Assembly (NCBI RefSeq): GCF_028641065.1
Contig: NC_073379.1
Span: 74,338,001 to 74,402,000 of the forward strand
DNA from: Leucoraja erinacea
Taxonomy: Eukaryota
Reading direction: 5' to 3'
DNA length: 64,000 bases
Position 1 is the stretch's first letter, and every line of letters starts with the position of its first letter. The notes under the pieces were generated by a model, which saw only the letters and a list, made by a program, of their open reading frames with translations, was not told where the DNA came from and did no database searches. Positions 2,270 through 54,290 of the stretch are shown here, piece by piece. Both the position numbers and the translations under genes were made by a program.

Positions 2270-5200
2270 TCAGATTCCATCTTTTGTAGTAAGAGAGATT
2301 CTGCAGTCAACACAATTATTCATACATAATTCAGTACATGGCACACCATGCTGTTGACATGAGCATCTTCCTTTCCCTGTAGTTGACTTCTCATAGCTAG
2401 TTTTCTTGCATGAACAGTAGGTTAGTTCCAGCAAGGTGCTTGGGGCTGGAGGCAGATCACCCCAGTCAATGTCCAATTCACCACCTACAATTTTCCACCC
2501 ATGTCCCTTTGGACTGTGAATTTGTGGGAACTGTGGCAGACATTTTGAATGTACAGTAGCCTGGTAACTTGCTCTCAGGACATGCTTTTTGAGAGAGTCT
2601 GCGGTGAGTTGTTTCTGAAGGTGATCAGTGAGCCTGCCAAATGTTGATGGAATACTTCTCTGGGACAGTTCTTGCATCATAGCCATTCCATCTACAATTC
2701 AGATGCTCTCTAGCAGAATGGCAACTTGTGGAGATGGTTGTACTTGCGATTCGATGTAGTGCAGCAAGGATGATTTTGCAGTTTTGTTAAGTGACCCATC
2801 TGGATGTGCAAGTGAGAGAGGAAGAGGGCCCAAGTTATATGTCAGCATGCTATGGATATCAAGCTTCCATACATTAGCGATGATCACAAGTCTGTGGAAC
2901 AGATTTCTGTCAGCCTTTAACACCACTTCCTTTCCTTTGATTGTAGACTGATTTGCCTTATTCATTGACTGGAAAGTCTTTGTTTTCTACTTCTTTAGCG
3001 GCTTGAACATATCTTCACTGCCCTGGAGACGATCTTTGGAGTATGTGATGAAAGCTGCATCTCCCTTCTCCCACGCAGTGATGTAATCCTCAGTTACATC
3101 CTTGGATGTAACACAGCCAGATGCTATGTGGACTAATTGATCATGGATGTCTTTGAAGGGATTAATCATTGCCTGAAGGACAGATATCTCCTTGCAGACA
3201 TCCTCTTCATCTCTCTGTATTCGCGACTGCTGCAAGTCCTTGAGACCCCTTGTCATCTGGTCTTTTCCTGCCATTTCTTCACATCTGGAAATAGTGGCTC
3301 TTTCTGGCTGGGACAAAATCCATCTTGAGACAGCTCCTTTGTGAGTTGTGAATCCCACTATGCCTTCTTTTGTTTTTGTGTCTCGGTTGCAGGTCTGCTC
3401 TTTGGCTTGATCACAGGCTACAAGTGAAAATCCATGATCAGCCTGCCTCTGTACAGCGAAATGGCCTTTCATGAACTCTTGGTGGACAGCAGGATGAAAA
3501 GATGGGAGGTCACACATTTCAAGCCATGGGCTGGCAGGTAACGGGCATAGATCATGTGATCATAGGCAAACAACCATGGAAGAAATGACCTCACAGCTGA
3601 GAGATGGAAGTTCCAGTTCCCTTCTCTGGTTGCTCTGAGAAACAGTAGCATCACTTCTACCATTTCAATGTAAGAAGACCATTCATTGAATGTTGGATTC
3701 TTCGCCCGATTGTTGACAAACTTATCATACATTGCAGTCATCTTGTGAAATTCATCTGATGACACAAGTTCAGTCAAAGCCTCTTCTGGAAAGGCTGCAT
3801 TCAGTTGGCTCATCAATGTTTGTGCTTGATGTTTATCCTCTTCTATAAGGGAGTCAAGGAAGATCTGCCAGTGGATGTGTTCTATTGCTTCCACCACACA
3901 CATGCATGCGGTCACTTCGATTGTAGTGATGGCCATTCATTGTACCATTCAAAGATCCCTGTGCAACGATCCCTGCTTCTACCACCAAGTTCCCAAGACC
4001 TGCATCTCTGAATCGTTTACCGATACAAGCTAACATGGTTAGAGAAGTGTGGAAGGCACCAAGACGGAAAACTATCTGATCAGAAAATCTCTCATTACTC
4101 CGATCTGCTGGGCTTTTGAGTATATGACTTGATCGAACACTACAACCACCTGTTCTTGCTTCAGAGCATTGCAATTTGAATAGACTTCTCAAGAACGGTG
4201 AAGACTGTGCCATATTCTGTTGGACAAGCATCTATAATTGGTAGATAGATGGTAGACTATCTACATCTAGATAGATGGTAGACTATCCATGATGGTAGAT
4301 TGGTAGACAGGAATGTTACATATTCCTGGAATCTCATTATGTAGAAGTGTTGCAGCCTGTCCATCCAGGGAAGATCCTCTCAGATGGATCTGCCAATTTA
4401 ATTACACACATTTAAAAACTTTGGACTGGTCGATAATATCTGTCCAGAAGATCAACATGTTCGCTGTAAGACTTTGGTCCAATTCTTTTGCTCCCATGAT
4501 ATTTCTTGATGTTAGGAGATGGCGGTTGGACAGATCATTGTCTATCTCTTGCAATGGGTACGGACTGAGATGACTAGGTTGATTCAGAGGTGGTAGAGGT
4601 GGCAGATGGGCACCACTGAAGAAGAATGCCAATTCGTATTGTGTGTGGTTCCCTTTTCACTTAATGTTTCTTCCCCAAAATCATTTGGGGAAGAAACGCA
4701 GTGAAGGTTGTTTGAGCATCAGCTGGAAGTAGGCTAATCTCCTGTTCTATCTGCCTCTTTGCCAGTGCAGTGTCATGTTCCAAGGTGAATGAATTTCAAG
4801 GTTAATTCCCGGGATTGCTGGACTGTCATTGCCGAGAGAATGGAATGGCTGGGCTTGTGCATTCTGGAGTTTAGAAGGATGAGAGGGTATCTTATTGAAA
4901 CATAAAAGATTGTTAAGGGTTTGGACACGCTAGAGGCAGGAAACATGGTCACGATGTTGGGTGAGTCCAGATCCAGGGGCCACAGCTTAAGAATAAGGGG
5001 TGAGCCATTTAGAACGGAGACAAGGAAGCACTTTTTCTCACAGAGAGTTGTGAGTCTGTGGAATTCTCTGCCTCAGAGGCTGGTGGAGGCAGGTTCTCTG
5101 GATGCTTTCAAGAGAGAGCTAGATAGGGCTCTTAAAGATAGCAGAGTCAGGGGATATGGGGAGAAGGCAGGAACGGGATACTGATTGGAAATAATCAGCC

Positions 5201-36624: not shown

Positions 36625-39548
36625 TCACTCAGGTCTTACTATACTAACCATACCTAGGTCCATATCCCTGCCCTCTCCCCGTAGCCCCTTATCCCCTTGG
36701 CAGCTAAAAAAGCCATCTATTTTAGTCTTAAATATATTTAAAGTTTCTGCTTCCACTGCTCCCTGGGGCAGTGAATTCCATAAATTAACCACCCTCTGGG
36801 TGAAGAAGTTCTTCCTCATCTCAGTTTTAAAAGAGCCCCCCCCTATTCTGCAACTATGTCCCCTAGTTCTAGTTTCCCCGATCATTGGGAACATCCTCGG
36901 TGCATCCACCCGATCAAGGCCCCTCACGATCTTATATGTTTCAATGAGATCGCCTCTCATTCTTCTAAACTCCAAAGAGTAGAGTTCCAGCCTACTTAAC
37001 CTTTCCTCATATGTCAATCCCCTCATTGCAGGAATTAATCTTGTAAACCTTCGCTGCACTGCCTCCAGGGCTAGTACATCCTTTCTTAAGTATGGACCCC
37101 AGAACTGTACACAGTATTCCAAATGTGGTCTCACTAATACTGTGTACAGCTGCAGCAAGACCTCCGTATTTTTATACTCAATCCCCCTAGCAATAAAGGC
37201 CAAAACTCCATTGGCCTTCCTGATTGCTTGCTGCACCTGCATACTAACTTTCAGTGATTCATGTACTAATACCCCTAGATCCCTTTGCATTGCATTACAA
37301 CGCAGCTCCTCCTCATTTAGAGAATAACTTGCCCTATCATTTTTTTTCCCAAAGTGAATGACTTCATTTTTATTAGTATTTAAATTTCATCTGCCAAGTT
37401 GTTGCCCACTCACCTAGCTTATCTATATCCTTTTGCAGACTCTTCCTATCCTCCTCATCCCCTACTTTTCCTCCCATTTTTGTATCGTCCGCAAATTTTG
37501 ATATATTACACTTGGTTCCCTCCTCCAAATCATTTATATAAATTGTGAACAACTGGGGTCCCAGCACCGACCCTTGCGGAACCCCGCTAGTTACCGGTTG
37601 CCATCCCGAGTATGAACCATTTATCCCCACTCTCTGCTTCCTATTTGTTAGCCAATCCTCTACCCATGCTAATATATTACCCCCAATCCCATAATTTTTT
37701 TATTTTTAGCAATAGTCTCTTATGTGGCACCTTGTCAAAAGCCTTTTGGAAGTCCAAGTATACCATATCCACCGGTTCCCCTTTATCCACCCGGGTTGTT
37801 ACTTCCTCAAAGAATTCGAGCAGATTCGTTAAACAGGACTTCCCCTTCACAAAACCATGCTGGTTCTGTCCGATGAAGTCATGTTTATCCAAGTGCCCCG
37901 TTAGTGTTTCTTTAATAATTGTCTCTAACATTTTACCCACCACCGATGTTAGACTAACCGGTCTATAGTTACCCGCCTTCTGTTTACTTCCTTTTTTAAA
38001 TATAGGTGTTACATTGGCCATTTTCCAATCCACTGGGACCGTTCCTGCCTCCAGGGAGTTTTGGAAAATTATCACCAATGCATCCACAATCCCCACCGCT
38101 ATCTCCCTCAAGACCCTTGGATGTAATCCATCAGGCCCAGGGGATTTATCCTCCTTCAGTCTCATTAATTTCCCTAATACCACCTCCTTGGTGATCTTAA
38201 TAGTATTTAGCTCCTCCATTCCTACCGCCCCCTGTTTATCCAGCGTTGGAATATTTTTTGTGTCTTCTATGGTGAAGACTGATACAAAATACTCGTTTAA
38301 TGCCTTTGCCATTTCCATGTTCCCCACCAACAACTCTCCAGCCTCACCCTCCAATGGACCAACGTTCACCTTAGCCACCCTTTTTCTTTTTATATAGCTA
38401 TAAAAACTCTTACTATTAGTTTTTATGTTGTTCGCTAAATTCCTTTCATAGTCTATTTTCCCCGTCTTAATTAATCTCTTCGTTATTTTTTGCTGACCTT
38501 TAAATGCTTCCCAATCCTCTACCCTCCCACTATCTCTGGCTACCTTATATGCCCTTGCCTTCAGCCGAATACTATCCTTTATAGTTTTACTGAGCCATGG
38601 CTGACTGTTCTTACCCTTACCCCTTTTTTTCTTCATAGGAATAAATTTTTCTTGAAGGTTATACAGTATACCCTTAAACGTACACCACTGCTCATGTACC
38701 GTCTTATTCTTGAGTCTGCTATCCCAGTCAACTTTGATCAGCTCAGTCCTCATACCTTCATAATCCCCCTTATTTAGACTAAGCACCCTAGCCTGAGTTT
38801 CAACCTGCTCCCCTTCTATTTGAATATGGAATTCGACCATATTGTGGTCACTTGTTCCCAACGAGTCCCTAACTATGACATTTTTAATTAATCCTGCTTC
38901 ATTACACAGGACCAGATCCAAGATTGCCTCCCCCCTTGTCGGTTCTGTGACATACTGTTCTAGGAACCCGTCTCTAATACATTCTATAAACTCTTCCTCT
39001 AGTCTACCCTGCCCAGTTTGGTTTGCCCAATTAATATGAAAATTGAAGTCCCCCATGATTACAGCAGTTCCCTTTTTACATGCGTCAACTATTTGCAGAT
39101 TTATGTTCTGACTAACAGCGTCACAGCTATTTGGAGGTCTATAAATTACACCCACTAGTGTTTTTTTCCCCTTATTATTCTCTATCTGTACCCAAGCTGT
39201 TTCACTATCCTGATCCTTCAACGCAATATCCTTCCTCTCTATTGCCGTTATTCCCTCCCTTATTTAAAGGGCCACCCCTCCTCCCTTTCTTTCCTGTCTA
39301 TCTTTCCTAATTGTCGAGTACCCCTCTATATTTAACTCCCAGTCCTGATCCCCTTGCAGCCATGTCTCCGTAATGGCCACGATATCATAACTATATATAC
39401 TTAATTGCACCGTTAATTCATTTATCTTATTATGAATACTCCGTGCATTTAGATAAAGCACTTTCAGATGATTTTTACTACCCTTCCTTTCCGTTTTTGC
39501 CCCTTTTACATCTAAAGCTTTATCTTCACACATTCTGTCTCCTGTCAC
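36625..39548 (-). pseudogene. CR1 ORF2 (APE endonuclease plus RT), interrupted in the assembly
   Basis: Pieces 39264-39548, 37677-39221, 37373-37630 and 36625-37290 carry LYLNARS, ITETWL, GDFN, SDHN, GVPQGS and FADD. The breaks lie at A/T runs. Confidence 0.9.
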
Positions 39549-39638
39549 ATTTTGACTTTCCGCTTCCCCACTGATACCCTGCTCTATTTCCTCTACCTCT
39601 GCCGTTATTACCCCCCTTGATACCTCCCCCCCCGCTAC

Positions 39639-40592
39639 TTAGTTTAAAGACCTCTCTACTGCCCTAGTTATATGATTTGCCAGGACCCCAGTCCCAGCAC
39701 CGTTCAGGTGAAGTCCGTCCTTACAGAACAGATCCCCCCTGTCCCAGTACTGGTGCCAGTGGCCCAAGAAACCAAACCCATTATTCCCACACCAGTCTTT
39801 GAGCCACGCATTTAGCTTTTTAATTTTACGTACCCTCGCCGATTTGGCCCGTGGCTCAGGTAGCAATCCGGAGATCAGTACCCTCGAGGTTCTGCTTTTT
39901 AATTTATTCCCTAACTGCTCAAACTCCTTCAGCAGATCCTCCTTCCTCGTCCTTCCTATGTCATTGGTCCCCACATGGACCACGACCACTGGATCCTCCC
40001 CCTCCCTCTGCAAATTTCTCTCCAGCATCGCAGAGATATCCTTAACCCTAGCACCGGGTAGGCAACACAGCCTTCGGGACATGTTCTGCTGGCCGCAGAG
40101 AACCTTATCTACCCCCCGAATAATACTATCCCCTATCACTACGGCATTTCTTCTAACTCCCCCCTCTTGAATGGCCTCCTGATCCACGGTGCTGCAGCCA
40201 GGTTGCTCATCCCTCCCACAGCCCCTGATCCCGTCCTTACATTGAGTAAGAGCCTCGGTCATGCTCGTCAGGGACAAGGGCTGTGGCTCCTGCCGCATCT
40301 CCTCCTGGTTCCCCCTACCTGCCTCGCTTATGGCCACACCTTCCTTTCCTTGCTCACTGCCTACTGAATTAGTTAAACTGGTCGGTGTGACCATCCCCTG
40401 GCACAAAACATCCAGGTAATACTCCCCCTCCCTGATGTACCGCAGCGTATGAAGTTGGGTCTCCAGCTCATCAATGCGGAGCTGGAGTTCCTCTAGCCTC
40501 AAACACTTACTGCAGCTGTAGGGATCTTCTACATCAATGGTGTCGACAAATTCCCACATCTCGCAGTATTGGCACATCTCCTGACCGCCCAT
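39639..40592 (-). CDS. CR1 ORF1: CxxC zinc finger, leucine zipper and SGNH/GDSL esterase
   Basis: Open 317-aa ORF with CQYC..CSKC, heptad leucines, VIGDSIIRG, VHVGTND and DGLHLN. Confidence 0.92.
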   Translation of the reverse strand: MGGQEMCQYCEMWEFVDTIDVEDPYSCSKCLRLEELQLRIDELETQLHTLRYIREGEYYLDVLCQGMVTPTSLTNSVGSEQGKEGVAISEAGRGNQEEMRQEPQPLSLTSMTEALTQCKDGIRGCGRDEQPGCSTVDQEAIQEGGVRRNAVVIGDSIIRGVDKVLCGQQNMSRRLCCLPGARVKDISAMLERNLQREGEDPVVVVHVGTNDIGRTRKEDLLKEFEQLGNKLKSRTSRVLISGLLPEPRAKSARVRKIKKLNAWLKDWCGNNGFGFLGHWHQYWDRGDLFCKDGLHLNGAGTGVLANHITRAVERSLN

Positions 40593-41514
40593 CTTATATA
40601 AGTAATTAACTGGTCCTATTTAAGAATCCCCTACTGTATTGATACACCCCTTATTTATATAATCCTACCTCCTATAAATGGGAAAGTACTCACCCCAGCC
40701 GTAAATTACCTACTGGTTTGGCTGTCTAGTGGTAATTCCGTCCGCTCTTCCTGTCTGGTCCACTGCTCCCTTGCAGTGCGTGGCAAACCTCTTTGCCTCT
40801 CCCAGAATCCTTAGCCTCTCAAGCGTATTGCGTGGTCTCCTCTCCTCAGCGAAGACTCTCGAGCCAAAGACTCACACTTTTCTCACAGGGCACTTCACTC
40901 ACTCTGCTGCTCGCAAGAGTTGAGGGCAAGCACTTCTAAACTCGCAGATTAGGTCGCCACAGTGGGACAGCCCCTTAAGTACATGGACATGTATACACAT
41001 ACATACAGTAATGCCACAATAGTCTGCAGACAACTTGAAAATGCATTGCATTTGCTCCAAAAACATGCCATTGCGATACACTATAATGATTCACTCCATA
41101 TATTGGTTACGTGACAGTTCCCCAAATGTTAGAGAGTTACAGGAACAATTGTATGAAGCTGAAATAAAGATTTTCATGTATCGAACAGTTGCTTTTGCTG
41201 TAGACATTTAAAAATATCAAGCCAAGGTTAACTGACTAACTTCATAAGTATTTATTGATAAATATATGGTCACAATTTACCTTTCTGCTGATCTCAGCTG
41301 ATTGAGACGCATTGCCTTTTGTTTCTTCAGCCAATGTTTTTAAATACTCCTTGGCAAATTGATCATATTACACAGGGCCTAGGAGGTCTAATCCAACACA
41401 AGACTGTAATGTGATTGATGTACCTTTAATAATTATAACATGGTGAACGCAAATTCTGCTTAAACAAGTGTCCATGAGAAACAATTTAAACTTCACTGCG
41501 TTATGTTGTACCAT

Positions 41515-44402: not shown

Positions 44403-45301
44403 CATGTTTTGAAAGGGGGGGTGACAATCCCTCCCATGTTTTGCAATCCGGATTTTGAAACTCGGTGAAAAAAAATCTATTAAAATCTCCGCTTTCCGTG
44501 AGACAGTGGGGGTGTCACTGTTAAGCGCTTGTTAAGTGTGTCCATTAACATCGTATTAACACGATGTGTCACCAAATATGTTTTGACCTTCAAGTATTAA
44601 TGAAGATATTCACGGAGAATTCCTTAAAGTTGTCTGATGCGGGGATAATTACCATTTGAACTAATTGGATATATTGGCGGATGGGAAAGATTTAAACGAG
44701 TATCGGACTTAAATGGGTCAGGTCATTAGGATACGGTCGAATTGGTTTCCTGGATGGCTTGCAGGTAAGTTTCTCATTCAGGTCACACGTTATTTAGTAT
44801 GTTTTTCCCATCTCTCTCTCTCTCTCTCTCTCTCTCCCCTCCAAGGTTGGTTCTTCTGTTTGCCTTTATTTGCTTCAGTTTTATTTGTTTAAGTGTTATT
44901 TATCACATTGTAGCTTTTGAAACATTCAAGCGGGTATCAGCCGCTTTCAAAGGTCTGAATCGGCCCCTTCATGCGGCCTTTCATCACCCGGCGTGGTTTA
45001 AATCAAACTGCTGCATTGAGCCGATCGAGGCTCCTGATGTTGAAGACCCTGCCAGCCGATTTTAAGCCACGCTGGACGATGAAAGGCCCCGCGAACGGGC
45101 CGATTCAAGCCCCACGATTCGGGGCGGGCAAAGCTGCTGTTGCTGGAGTTCGGAGTCGGTCACCAACCAGGTCAGCTCCCGAAGGTAGACAAAAATGCTG
45201 GAGAAACTCAGGGGGTGAGGCAGCATCTATGGAACGAAGGAATAGGTGATGTTCCTTGCTGAAACGCTTCCTCAGATCTGGTCAGAGGAAGGTCTGAGGA
45301 A

Positions 45302-45337
45302 GGGTCTGAAGAAGGGCCTCGACCCGAAATGTCACCT
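45302..45337 (+). ncRNA. Minimal hammerhead ribozyme motif (Penelope pLTR type)
   Basis: gggt CTGAAGA agggcc-tc-gaccc GAAA t GTC acct: core, stem II (one mismatch), NUH site and stem I ggt/acc. Confidence 0.6.
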
Positions 45338-45358
45338 ATTCCTTCGCTCCATAGATGC

Positions 45359-47075
45359 CAAAGATCTTATAGCAGAGCAAGATGGCCTACTCCTATGAAA
45401 AACACGTAGTACAGTCATGGGCAGATTCATGGGCGATCATAGGACCTATTTTAGCAACCAGCCTCCGCCATCTTGTTCCGCCATCTTGTTCCGCCATCTT
45501 GCTCTGCCATCATGCTTCTGGCCAAAGATCGGATCTTTGCTTCCGCCTCCGCTCCCGTATTTTCGCTTTGGTCTTTGACTTGGGCGGGAGAGGGGGGTGC
45601 ATGGTCCGGGGCAGCGGGGAGGCCCAAGGCCTTGGCAGGGTGAGGTGGGTGCACGGCCGGGGTAGCGGGGAGAGGAGGTGCGCCATGGGCAGCGGGGAGG
45701 CCTGGGGCCTTGACGGGGAGAGGGGGTGCGCGGCCCAGGGCAGCGGGGAGAGAGGAGGGGAGTAGTGCAAGTGGGGTAGTGGTGACGCAGGAGGGTTGGG
45801 TAGGGCTGGGGGAGGGAGAGAGCAAAGATCTTATTGCGGAGCTCCGCTATAAGATCTTTGGGAGAGAGAGTTGGGGTAGGGGCCGGGGTGCAGAGAGCAT
45901 GGGGAGAGATGTGGGGTCGGGGGCTGGTGGGTTAAGGGACTACAGCATAGGAGGGGGGGAGACATTGTAGTGTGGGGGGAGGCGAGGGAGTGCCGGTGGG
46001 GGGGAGAGTTGAGGGGTGGGATTAGGGCCTAGTGTGTGTGAAGTTGCAGAGAGGTTTACAATGTTTATTATTTAATGTCCCTTGTCTAGTCTGAAATAAA
46101 GTTCATCATTGGATATAAAAATCAGAAGAAATATAATTGTGTGTGTTATATGATTATATACATCTATATCACATTCATGTATGTGTGTTCTTTCCAGCAC
46201 AATCTAATCAGTTGTATGCTCATGGAATAAAACCATCCTTAAGTTATGCATCTTATGGAAATCTTGCTCAAAACAAATTTAATTTTGTGAAATTCTTCAA
46301 TTACATAACCCCACAGGCAGATCTCATTCCACTCTCTGGCTATTGGGAAGACCAGACCCCTTTTTATTTGTGGAAAACAACTCCATAGAAAATAGAAAAT
46401 AAGCACAAAAACATTAAGTAACATTCCATGAACTGGAATCTTCATATTACTATTATTTTCCCAAATACTGCAGATGTGAACAGTGTGATTACATTAATGT
46501 GATTAGTGAAAGAATTACAGAGTGCAAGTGTAATACAAAATCAACTCAAACACAGCATATGAGCCATTTAAAAATAAATGATTTAAAAAACATTAAAAAA
46601 GAAAATTACCAGAGGCAAAATTTATAAACGTTTTATTCTTTAACAAGAATTAACAGAATTATGAACTAACAGAATTATGAACCTAACCCTATATCACACA
46701 CAAAAACTGTTCCCCCGCAACGTTGATTACGTTGCGGGTCGGATCTGGTAGGTTCCGGTTAATACAAAATCAACTCAAATGCAGCTTATGAACCATTTCA
46801 AAAGAAATGATTTAAAAAACATTAAAAAAGACAATTACCAGAGTCAAATTTTATTCTTGACAAGAATTAACAGAAGTATGAACTAACAGAATTACACCAA
46901 AGATCCTATCGCTCAGCTATAAGATCTTTGGATTACATATGCGAGTCGGGTCGGGTAGGTTCCGGTTACTAAAATGGGCGGGGAAAAATACCCAGGATCC
47001 CCTCCGTAGCGTACTACACGTCAGCCCATTTCATTTCGTAGGAGTAGCCTATCTTGCTCCGCTATAGGATCTTTG
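45359..47075. mobile_element. P-superfamily-like non-autonomous DNA transposon
   Basis: ~42-bp imperfect TIRs starting CAAAG (caaagatcttatagcagagcaagat and atcttgctccgctataggatctttg). Perfect 8-bp TSD atagatgc. Confidence 0.75.
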
Positions 47076-47201
47076 ATAGATGCTGCCTCACCCGCTGAGT
47101 TTCTCCAGCATTTTTGTCTACCTTCAATTTTTCCAGTATCTGCAGTTCTTTCTTAAACACGTCAGCTCCCAATGTTACCGTTCACAGGGCCCACAGTTGA
47201 A

Positions 47202-50440: not shown

Positions 50441-51039
50441 ATTGAGTTGCCAAGTTCTGTTCTGTAATTATGCACCACAAGGTTGCAATTGTATTGTGTT
50501 GCATAATAGTATGAATAATTTTTTCCCATCTGATTTTAATAAACTTCAACTCAGTGCCTAGTTTCACACATGAACAGTTACTAAGGTGCCTGTCAGAGTT
50601 TTCCCATTGAGTCATCAAAATTACAGATAATCTATTTTGAAGCAGAAAGGCATTTAATGAATTTCATTGGCTCTTGTACCTGGTACCATTACCACTTAGT
50701 GTTTTCATAGCCAATCTCCCATGGTACTTATGGCCGTAAGAAATGTAGCTAACACGCACACTGCGACATTGAAGTGTGGTAGGTCTGCCAGTGGAATTAA
50801 ACATACTCCATGGGGATGATCTTTATGATACAACTGACAGTGATGCTGCATTTCAGAATCAATTACTAATACCATGTTATGATTTCTAGGAATAGTTTTT
50901 AGAGAAACAGATGCATTTCATGCTACTAACACTGGGGACATTTGTGTTAATATAGATATAAAAGGAACAGTGCAGCAAACAAGAATGACAAAACTTTAAC
51001 ATTCGATTATGCAACTATCTGTAAATTTCAATGGTTTGG

Positions 51040-51480
51040 CTCACCTGGGCCTTGGTGCCCACATTCCTTTTAATGCACTGGGGCCTTGATGCCCACACTC
51101 CCTTTAATGCACTGGGGCCCTTCTCTACACTCCTTTTAACGCACTGGGGCTCATTCTCTGCACTCCCTTTAATGCACTGGGGCATACTCTTTGCACTCCC
51201 TTTAACACACTGGGGTCATGGTTCCCACACCCTTCCACAGAGTAGGATCCCACTTCACCTGCTCCATTTAATACATCAGAGCTCTGGTTCCCACTCTCCT
51301 TTTAAACTCACTGGGGCCAAGATTCCTGCACCCCCTTTAAACTAACTGACTTCTGTTTCTCACACTCCCTTGAAACTCACCTGGTTATCTCTCTTGCACT
51401 CCTTTGGAACTCAAGTGATTCTGTTTTCCACATGTCCCCGAAGCATGCCAGGGCCCGTTTCCTGTGTTCCCTTTGAACGT
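51040..51480 (+). repeat. ~31-bp minisatellite (cactccctttaatgcactgggg...)
   Basis: About a dozen progressively degenerate units. It gives the spurious LMHWG-repeat ORF. Confidence 0.85.
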
Positions 51481-52245: not shown

Positions 52246-54290
52246 GACTTGGTGGGCTAGCACCTGATTCCATGCAGTATCTCTCAAATTACATGAAATT
52301 AAACCTGCATACTAGACAAACAACCAATGAATAATAACTAATTTACATTAAAATGTAGATAAAAGGAATTGATTGTGCTGGTTTACAAAAAAACCCACAA
52401 AGTGCTGGAGTAACTCAGCAGGTGAAGCAACACCTCTGACCAGACTCAAAACATCGCCTCTCCATGTTCTCCAGACATGCTGCCTGACCCGTTGAGTTAC
52501 TCCGGAACTTTGTGTTTTTCATTTACATTAAAACCTGAGTCACTCTAGTAGTTGATTTGTTCTGGAAGGATCTCGATCCGAAACGTCACCTATTCCTTCG
52601 CTCCATAGATGCTGCCTCACCCGCTGAGTTTCTCCAGCATTTTTGTCTACCAGTAGTTGATTTGATAACTGAATACTAATAATCAACAAATGTGACACAT
52701 AACTTGCTGCTGTAATGCTGCAAGAAGTTCCTAGTTTATTTTTTGGCGTATCAAATTATCATGCTTTTGAATTAAATTAACCAAATGTGGATTTTTCATT
52801 TAAAAATAAGCAATTCCATTCCTTAGGTGGAAGATTTCTGATTTTTTGTCAAGCTGAGATTTAAACAAACTTAGTGAACCACTTTAACTTCTGGAAGGTT
52901 CTAAACCATTTTAAAGTACGGTATGTTCCAGGCATAAATGGGTTAGTGGCTATGGAGGCTCAAAAAGATCTGTAGTGGCCAGGATCCAGAACAAGTACTA
53001 GAGCTATAATTGGTCAGCTCTGTTTGTTCAAACCCCCATGATGATATCAGTTCATTACTTTTGTGCGATCTTTTTTTGGTTCTTGGTTTATACAACTTAT
53101 AAAAGAAAGGCAGAGAAAGGAGGAATTTACCACATGCCATTAACAAATAAGATGAGAACTTTACGGGATAAAGTTCATTTGTTCTCACAGTTATTTCCCA
53201 GGCCCGTGTCCACTTTTTTTTTATCAATTAGAATAAAGAAAAATCAACCAAAAAGCTAGTTAAGCTGTTACCATGGAGGCAGCAAATAAATGCTCATTGC
53301 TGCTAATTTTGATGAGACCACCAATAAATAGGTCACTGTGAATTCAGTTGGTCATTCTTATCCCTGCTGAAGAAGCATGAAAGGGCTTAATGTGTTCAGG
53401 GAATTTGCCTCCTTGGTCTAAGTTTTCATTCTCCTTCAACGTACCAGATTTCCATGCTAAACTCTGCAAATAGAATGTATTGAATTGTTGGTCCAAAACA
53501 GAGAGACTTGCTTATAACATCACAAAGAAAAATCACATGGAACACAATTTGGCCATTAAATCCTTCCTTTAAACAGGCTGCATGCTTTGCCAACTGGTTG
53601 AATTTACTAAAGAAAGATTCAGCAAAGGTTCTCATTGTTCCTTTGTGTTTAATGGAGAAATTATCTAACCTTATGTTCTGCATCCCTCATTCCTGATCAG
53701 CCCTTGTCATGCCATGGGATTCCCAGGTTCGCAGCTTAAAGCTGCCTTCAAAAAGATTGTGATGTATTTATTACATAAATCTTAATCCTCTTCATAATCC
53801 AATATTTACATAGCTTTTTATTAGCTCTTTGCATTAGTTATTTTCATTTTCTATGTAATCCTCGTTTAGAAACATATTTCTCCCAGCCTCAAATCTAGTC
53901 TGACACAATCGTGTCTTTTATTGTGGGATTCCAGCATTTTGTAGCATGGATGTTGATCTCTTGCAAGGAATAAGGATTGGGTTCTGTCAGTCTCTCTTCC
54001 TAACAGAAAAACATAAGCCCTAGTGTTATTTTTGTCATTCTCTGAATCATTCCCAACCTCAGCGACCTTTGATACATCCAGTTGGAAAGATTTACGCTTT
54101 GTATTCTTTGTAAACAGATCCATTGTTGTGTTGCACCCAACACAAGAAAAACGGCCTAGGAATGGACTGAGGTCTAAAGGTCGGTTTGTGGAGTGGTGAG
54201 TGGCAGGGAAATGAACAGTTTCTTTGGGGGCTTGATCCAGTATAATTCCATATAAAACCATAGGCAATGTTTTACAAGTTGAAATGATTT

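What the first reader, a model, noticed from the sequence alone, without database searches (positions are those of the whole stretch)
45515..46938. Three head-to-head TIR palindromes resembling P excision footprints inside the element itself
Seen: caaagatcttattgcggag|ctccgctataagatctttg (45823-45860, 19+19 bp, flanked by ggagagag twice); caaagatcctatc|gctcagctataagatctttg (46898-46930, flanks aattacac/gattacat); and caaagatc-g-gatctttg (45523-45539, flanks cttctggc/cttccgcc). Each is the outer tip of both TIRs joined. Established: Drosophila P transposase leaves 17-nt 3' overhangs of TIR at the donor site, and P/Galileo excision leaves such palindromic footprints between TSDs. Inference: a fossil record of repeated self-insertion (local hopping) and excision. 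The ~19-20-nt retained tips suggest a stagger slightly longer than in fly P.
Basis: partly seen in the sequence, partly recalled or inferred. Interest (0 to 1): 0.72.

Follow-up and report, generated by a model that had tools for sequence, protein, structure and literature searches.

The report
Excision scars of a vertebrate P-transposon
The three palindromes sit inside a P-type jumping gene of a jawed vertebrate and match over 4,000 similar palindromes across its genome; they are likely scars left where copies jumped out, and their sharp length limit suggests the enzyme cuts 20 bases inside each end (17 in flies), probably at a sequence mark and not a fixed distance.

Summary
Window 45359-47075 is a non-autonomous P-superfamily element: about 42-bp TIRs and a perfect 8-bp target duplication. 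Relatives encode a P transposase with a THAP domain, DDE and 7 of 8 GTP-site residues. The genome holds 4,152 tip-to-tip palindromes (control 4) and about 5,900 intact ends. Of 35 sampled, 28 are flanked by an 8-bp duplication (at most 1 mismatch); empty paralogous sites exist. Arm length stops sharply: 1,597 arms reach 18 nt, 1,084 reach 20, 7 reach 23. Junctions are microhomology, blunt or templated-insertion types, as in fly P repair. So these are most likely excision footprints of a 20-nt staggered cut. In subfamilies whose tip is 18 or 19 nt long, arms stop at 18 or mostly 19, just before the inner AAGAT, so the inner nick seems placed by sequence, not distance. Only the 33-bp site has many empty alleles. 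A new variant of a known mechanism; no biochemical proof.

The parts
45359..47075 (+). Non-autonomous P-superfamily element, 1,717 bp
   Evidence: TIRs and perfect 8-bp TSD; bases 697-1717 shared at 85-86% with transposase-bearing loci L068, L076, L078; many copies in G000
45351..45358 (.). Left target-site duplication ATAGATGC
   Evidence: single copy in the paralogous host repeat at 52605-52612
47076..47083 (.). Right target-site duplication ATAGATGC
45359..45400 (+). Left TIR; 20-nt tip 45359-45378, inferred inner nick between 45378 and 45379, followed by AAGAT
   Evidence: inverted repeat I10; arm cut-off
47034..47075 (-). Right TIR; 20-nt tip 47056-47075
45464..45514 (-). Four 13-bp tandem repeats, each holding an inverted copy of TIR bases 20-28 (CAAGATGGC); candidate subterminal transposase sites (function inferred)
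   Evidence: family D8; motif match
45515..45547 (.). Palindrome A: 17 bp (8+9 nt) with 8-bp flanks; nearly fixed in this lineage, also upstream of the THAP exon in transposase copies
45815..45868 (.). Palindrome B: 38 bp (20+20 nt sharing GC) with perfect 8-bp flanks, in a GC-rich segment
45582..46054 (.). GC-rich segment absent from the transposase-bearing copies examined; stands where they have coding exons
   Evidence: blast gap between element bases 223 and 697
46890..46938 (.). Palindrome C: 33 bp (15+20 nt sharing GC) at target GATTACAC; its left flank is also a deletion junction of about 50 bp
46531..46965 (+). Two tandem units of about 229 bp; the first keeps the single target (46734-46741 region), the second carries palindrome C
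   Evidence: families D5, D9; alignment
45181..45358 (.). Host palindromic interspersed repeat, left part (continues at 47076-47125)
   Evidence: repeats I3, I5, D3, D6

Best explanation
The three palindromes are joined tips of the terminal repeats of a P-superfamily transposon, each flanked by an 8-bp duplication, and are likely donor-site scars: the transposase would cut one strand at the element's end and the other 20 bases inside it, and host end-joining would fuse the two leftover 20-base tails. Shown: element anatomy, the P transposase in relatives, thousands of such palindromes with duplicated targets, empty paralogous sites, the 20-nt cap. Inferred: 3' tails of 20 nt; joining mostly through the terminal GC (38 bp), an inner GC (33, 28 bp), CTATAG (22 bp), GATC (12 bp), blunt ligation (40 bp) or short templated synthesis. 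The three in the window arose when family members inserted into an ancestral copy and left again; descendants then carried the scars. Inferred with less certainty: the inner nick is placed just before the inner AAGAT, so the stagger is 20, 19 or 18 nt depending on tip length.
For: 4,152 palindromes vs 4 in the control; only 282 vs 12 at 42-72 bp, many with templated duplications. 21 of 35 sampled have a perfect 8-bp duplication, 28 of 35 at most 1 mismatch; 7- and 9-bp registers fail. 11 of 75 footprints have a paralogue with the target once and no gap. Arms: 1,597 reach 18 nt, 1,084 reach 20, 79 have A at 21, mostly explained by the other arm, none a 21|20 or 21|21 blunt join (read by eye), 7 reach 23, although the TIR runs to about 42 nt and 2,389 intact ends match to 25 nt. 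Target preference is the same at intact ends and footprints, (G/C)T-N4-A(C/G), like fly P (PMC2577343, passages). Fly P leaves 17-nt tails and the same junction classes (PMC2895639, passages with Tables 1 and 3; PMC7776569, two sections). Transposase: four P-specific Pfam domains, THAP exon, E 1.3e-42 to PDB 6p5a. 18-nt tip variant: 84 of 85 matches do not continue into the next A; 20 of 20 further loci have an 8-bp duplication with at most 1 mismatch; blunt 18|18 and 18|20 joins occur.
Against: No clean ancestral empty allele for palindromes A or B; A's flanks differ by one base in most copies. C's left flank is confounded by a deletion of about 50 bp. Counts are inflated by scars carried in other repeats. 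All tip variants end in GC, a favoured microhomology, so trimming of a longer tail to GC could mimic a nick there; 5 of 28 matches of the 19-nt variant continue with A. No biochemical data; no fully intact autonomous copy with clean ends was shown.
Confidence: 0.88

Rival explanations
1. Footprints as above, but the inner nick is set by a fixed ruler: each subfamily's transposase measures its own distance, or a 20-nt tail is always made and trimmed back to the GC in the short-tip variants.
For: The 18-nt subfamily has its own transposase, about 81% DNA identity to the 20-nt lineage. Every variant ends in GC, which favours joining there. 5 of 28 matches of the 19-nt variant go on with A.
Against: Five blunt joins at 18 nt (four 18|18, one 18|20) and none retaining 19 or 20 nt; 84 of 85 matches do not continue with A. 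Mixed scars (18+20, 19+20) and elements with unequal tips imply one complex handling both lengths.
Confidence: 0.3
2. The elements collapsed without transposase, by hairpin slippage or aborted gap repair between the inverted ends.
For: A few long arms exist (7 of 1,084 reach 23 nt), and internally deleted elements are common.
Against: The TIR runs to about 42 nt and many ends have a 4-nt self-complementary GGCC at bases 26-30, yet no symmetrical GGCC join is among the 7 long arms. The drop from 20 to 23 nt is about 150-fold.
Confidence: 0.04
3. The palindromes are tiny mobile MITEs that insert by themselves.
For: Each has two tips and an 8-bp duplication with the family's target preference.
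Against: Idiosyncratic forms always share their flanks: a 40-bp form 9 of 9, a 38-bp form 6 of 6 printed, a 44-bp form 2 of 2, a 36-bp form 14 of 14. They lack the inner TIR, which in fly P is bound by the HTH domain (PMC7776569).
Confidence: 0.03
4. The in-element palindromes are functional subterminal repeats (binding sites), made by internal duplication.
For: A is in 43 of 44 copies, B in 31 of 32; both main subfamilies carry a palindrome 130-190 bp from an end.
Against: Absent from 37 of 50 right ends and from the left ends of other transposase lineages (L066, L085). Same anatomy as thousands of external scars. At least ten different internal sites carry such scars in different copies.
Confidence: 0.05

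Closest known systems
Drosophila melanogaster P element and its excision junctions
   Same: Transposase domains and catalytic residues, 8-bp TSD with GT...AC preference, TIR tips left between the two TSDs with short microhomology, blunt and templated-insertion joins; self-insertion is reported for P constructs (PMC4744444, passages).
   Different: Cap at 20 nt (18-19 in variants) against 17; TIR about 42 bp of unrelated sequence against 31; thousands of natural scars fixed in a vertebrate genome, where the fly data read here are induced events.
Zebrafish Pdre2 / zfTHAP9
   Same: Vertebrate P-like elements with 8-bp TSDs and internally deleted copies (PMC7776569, passage).
   Different: 13-bp TIRs; excision in cells gave larger flanking deletions and no integration was detected (PMC10983969, passages); no stagger length appeared in those passages. 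Relationship to the present transposase was not tested.
P-type transposases of marine invertebrates
   Same: Named nearest hits are mollusc proteins (Batillaria, Elysia) at 35-40% identity.
   Different: Closer hits (57-80%) are unnamed; no named THAP9 among the 120 listed.

Membership tests
P superfamily | P-type DDE transposase with GTP-binding insertion domain | tested here: met
   PF21787, PF21788, PF21789, PF12017 over cut-off in P0001; D230, D303, E531 and 7 of 8 GTP residues aligned to 6p5a, K400 is R (one search read against the residue list)
P superfamily | N-terminal THAP domain | tested here: met
   THAP exons after the left end; PF05485 E 4.5e-10
P superfamily | TIRs starting CA and 8-bp TSD | tested here: met
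   transposase copy L066/L278 has both ends and TSD GTCGTGAC. The CA(N)RG terminal rule is recalled, from no call
P superfamily | Window element belongs to the transposase's family | tested here: met
   shares 1,020 bp of right end at 85-86% and part of the left end with transposase loci; those copies are broken or lack E531
P superfamily | Long staggered cleavage leaving TIR tails on the donor | tested here: inconclusive
   strongly implied by the arm cut-off, not observed biochemically
P superfamily | GTP dependence | not testable with these tools
   only residue conservation
Fly P mechanism in the strict sense | 17-nt stagger | tested here: not met
   1,084 arms reach 20 nt, including blunt 20|20 joins with perfect TSDs (L005, L127)
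THAP9 (domesticated P gene) | Single copy without TIRs or deleted copies | tested here: not met
   38 transposase matches, about 5,900 ends
MITE (self-mobile mini element) | Same unit at many independent targets | tested here: not met
   diagnostic forms share flanks

The most novel reading that the evidence does not exclude
The genome is a natural mutagenesis experiment showing that P transposases do not count bases: the inner nick falls just before an inner copy of the tip motif (AAGAT, tip bases 3-7), which after the cut can re-pair with the transferred strand near its end and loop out a spacer of any length. The stagger (17 in flies; 18, 19, 20 here) would then be written in the TIR, which makes the open question of how P ends reach their looped structure directly testable.
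Probability: 0.5. Interest if true: 0.72.

Novelty: new variant of a known kind. Interest (0 to 1): 0.58.

Why it matters
[quoted passage not shown] The data here give a second stagger length, read from more than a thousand natural events, and tip-length variants that predict where the nick falls. They also show a P lineage that was massively mobile in a jawed vertebrate (about 3,000 elements, and scars of the same order), with main-exon copies 98.8-100% identical. The scars are a large record of how a vertebrate germ line joins long non-complementary 3' tails.

Tried and rejected
Empty allele of B: two genome patterns found 0 places; one copy lacks it through a larger deletion (L019). Empty allele of A: 1 place; it lies in a derived, interrupted copy and is likely a secondary loss. 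A second P family for an independent test of the motif rule: all 16 further transposase loci fetched belong to the same lineage. Sequencing runs for presence/absence between individuals were not obtained, so current activity is open. Rfam gave one sub-threshold hit outside the element. The 12-bp form CAAAGATCTTTG is enriched (1,131 vs 88) but only 6 of 15 have a duplication, so it was left out of the main count. Local hopping: among the first 50 places, 2 private scars lie inside one element copy (L108) and 1 lies 200 bp outside an end; 0 private internal scars in 30 end loci taken in genome order; suggestive only. The primary structure paper of the fly complex was not found in the library, so the re-pairing register could not be compared base by base. 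Papers on Galileo footprints, shark P elements or genome-wide P footprints were not listed. No supplements were read.

Full report
Observation. The three palindromes are present as described: 17 bp at 45523, 38 bp at 45823 and 33 bp at 46898, each with 8-bp flanks that match perfectly (38-mer) or with 2 mismatches. They lie in a 1,717-bp element (45359-47075) with 42-nt inverted ends and a perfect duplication ATAGATGC, inserted in a palindromic interspersed repeat whose paralogue at 52565-52651 has the 8-mer once. The tip octamer occurs 13 times in the window against 3.87 expected. The genome carries one intact RAG2 gene, so it is a jawed vertebrate; that the repeats look like those of skates or sharks is my recall and was not tested.

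The element is a P-superfamily transposon. A search with the P GTP-binding domain gave 38 matches. Loci L068, L076 and L078 share the element's last 1,020 bp at 85-86%, and L069 also shares part of the left end. A 773-codon exon from the sister subfamily (P0001) has four P-specific Pfam domains and matches fly P transposase 6p5a at E 1.3e-42. Counting along that alignment, D230, D303, E531 and 7 of the 8 GTP-site residues listed in PMC7776569 are kept; K400 is R. THAP exons follow the left end. One copy has both ends and a TSD (L066/L278) but a frameshift in exon 2. Another has open exons 1, 2 and main exon but a degenerate far end (L072). Five main exons are 98.8-100% identical, three with different left flanks. 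No fully intact copy was shown, and the transposase copies nearest the window's own lineage are broken. Intact ends number 5,945, about 3,000 elements.

The palindromes are genome-wide. CAAAGATC-N(0-25)-GATCTTTG matches 4,152 places against 4 in the reversed control; the 42-72 bp class has 282 against 12. I fetched 36 of the first places in genome order (35 distinct): 21 have a perfect 8-bp duplication, 28 at most one mismatch, and 7- or 9-bp registers fail. Five of the 36 are in-family passengers; a few more ride in other repeats, so independent events are fewer than the raw count. For 11 of 75 footprints a paralogous repeat among held loci shows the target once with no gap, e.g. 36 empty copies for L124; most others had no paralogue in hand. 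Targets of intact ends (n=132) and of footprints (75 distinct perfect TSDs) share the preference (G/C)T-N4-A(C/G), close to the fly core GTCCGGAC (PMC2577343, passages).

Arm length has an edge at 20. With one degenerate tip pattern, 1,597 arms reach 18 nt, 1,084 reach 20, 79 have the A of base 21 and 7 reach 23, while 2,389 intact ends match to base 25. Read by eye, about half of the 79 are 20 nt joined to a 9-, 10- or 12-nt arm that begins with A; most of the rest are templated duplications or decayed 33-, 38- and 40-mers; one fits 21|15, two could be 22-nt arms, and none is a 21|20 or 21|21 blunt join. Blunt 20|20 joins with perfect TSDs exist (L005, L127). Among 118 footprints with distinct TSDs, a set biased by my searches, 38 join through 2 nt, 13 are blunt, 18 through other overlaps and 49 carry insertions or mutations; 7 of 236 arms need more than the tip. 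Fly P leaves 17-nt 3' tails and its sequenced joints show the same classes (PMC2895639, passages with Tables 1 and 3). The simplest reading is a 20-nt staggered cut followed by end-joining.

The nick seems to follow sequence. Intact ends come in tip lengths of 20 (105 of 132), 19 (10) and 18 nt (15) before the inner AAGAT (the motif was required by the search). For the 18-nt tip, 84 of 85 matches do not continue with A. One 36-bp form among them is a passenger (14 of the first 19 loci). Twenty further places, chosen for other forms, all have a duplication with at most one mismatch. Four blunt 18|18 and one 18|20 join occur, none retaining 19 or 20 nt. For the 19-nt tip, 23 of 28 do not continue with A, 5 do, and 21 of 28 have a duplication with at most one mismatch. 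Further variants beginning CAAAGATT also end at GAGC in the listed rows. A cut after base 20 exposes AAGAT, identical to tip bases 3-7 and the longest such match for any cut from 12 to 25. In the fly complex the transferred strand loops out and pairs with the 5' part of the other strand, and this pairing is required (PMC7776569). I infer that the same re-pairing sets the nick here. This rests on 5 bp and has no covariation test, since only one P lineage was found; the GC microhomology at every tip end is a confound.

The three window palindromes are inherited. A is in 43 of 44 copies (the script missed it in L042) and in transposase copies upstream of the THAP exon, but not in the lineages of L066 and L085. 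B is in 31 of 32 copies of a GC-rich sublineage (the search favoured copies that have it), with no empty allele found. C is in 13 of 50 right ends; 37 keep one GATTACAC, and the C allele also lacks about 50 bp to its left. Other copies carry scars at other internal sites, with empty alleles in sisters (L108; L027 and L200; L286/L287, L246/L252 and fixed scars in the 18-nt subfamily): at least ten internal sites in all, several next to an earlier scar. Self-insertion and excision therefore happened repeatedly in the family's history, but not at this locus, and the case for a local-hopping bias is modest.

Rivals. Self-mobile mini-elements: odd forms always share flanks. Transposase-free collapse: it would not stop at 20 of 42 nt and should use the GGCC at bases 26-30, which it does not. 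Functional subterminal repeats: dispensable in many copies; a better candidate for that role is the 13-bp repeat at 45464-45514, an inverted copy of TIR bases 20-28. A fixed ruler in place of a sequence mark remains open (about 0.3).

Novelty. P elements, their long stagger and such joints are known from flies; zebrafish P-like elements are known. Ten literature searches listed no paper on a genome-wide natural record of P footprints or on a stagger other than 17 nt; the library lacks most subscription papers and the repeat databases, where the family may already be entered. Verdict: new variant of a known kind, interest 0.58.

Noticed in passing
L077:4174-6375 (G000:C3 near 15.88 Mb): A diverged transposase copy (P0003) with an open 733-codon frame and DDE kept, but no THAP exon found by motif and no paired ends within about 15 kb; nearly identical to a 32-member Logan cluster of 677-aa proteins (P0006). 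Possibly an expressed or domesticated copy.
   Followed up: partly
L290, L295, L302 (18-nt subfamily, about 140-190 bp from the right end): Two scars in tandem sharing one 8-bp target copy; similar scar-beside-scar cases in L108, L286, L287. Suggests re-insertion at or beside old scars.
   Followed up: partly
window 2270-4231, minus strand: Several open frames that look like pieces of a broken transposase-like gene with a Cys-rich end (label recalled); the piece at 2987-3556 had no Pfam match.
   Followed up: partly
window 44954-45109: GC-rich hairpin repeat just upstream of the host repeat; weak Rfam match to MIR7533 far below the gathering score (46 vs 230 bits), probably a MITE-like palindrome.
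   Followed up: no
window 37677-40619, minus strand: LINE with long open frames (endonuclease and reverse transcriptase domains), fairly intact.
   Followed up: no
window 51034-51374: Degenerate tandem array with a 33-35 bp period (families D1, D2).
   Followed up: no
L276 (G000:C1:34912981-34919006): 6-kb element with CAAAGATCATAGA-type ends, no transposase match and no clear TSD.
   Followed up: partly
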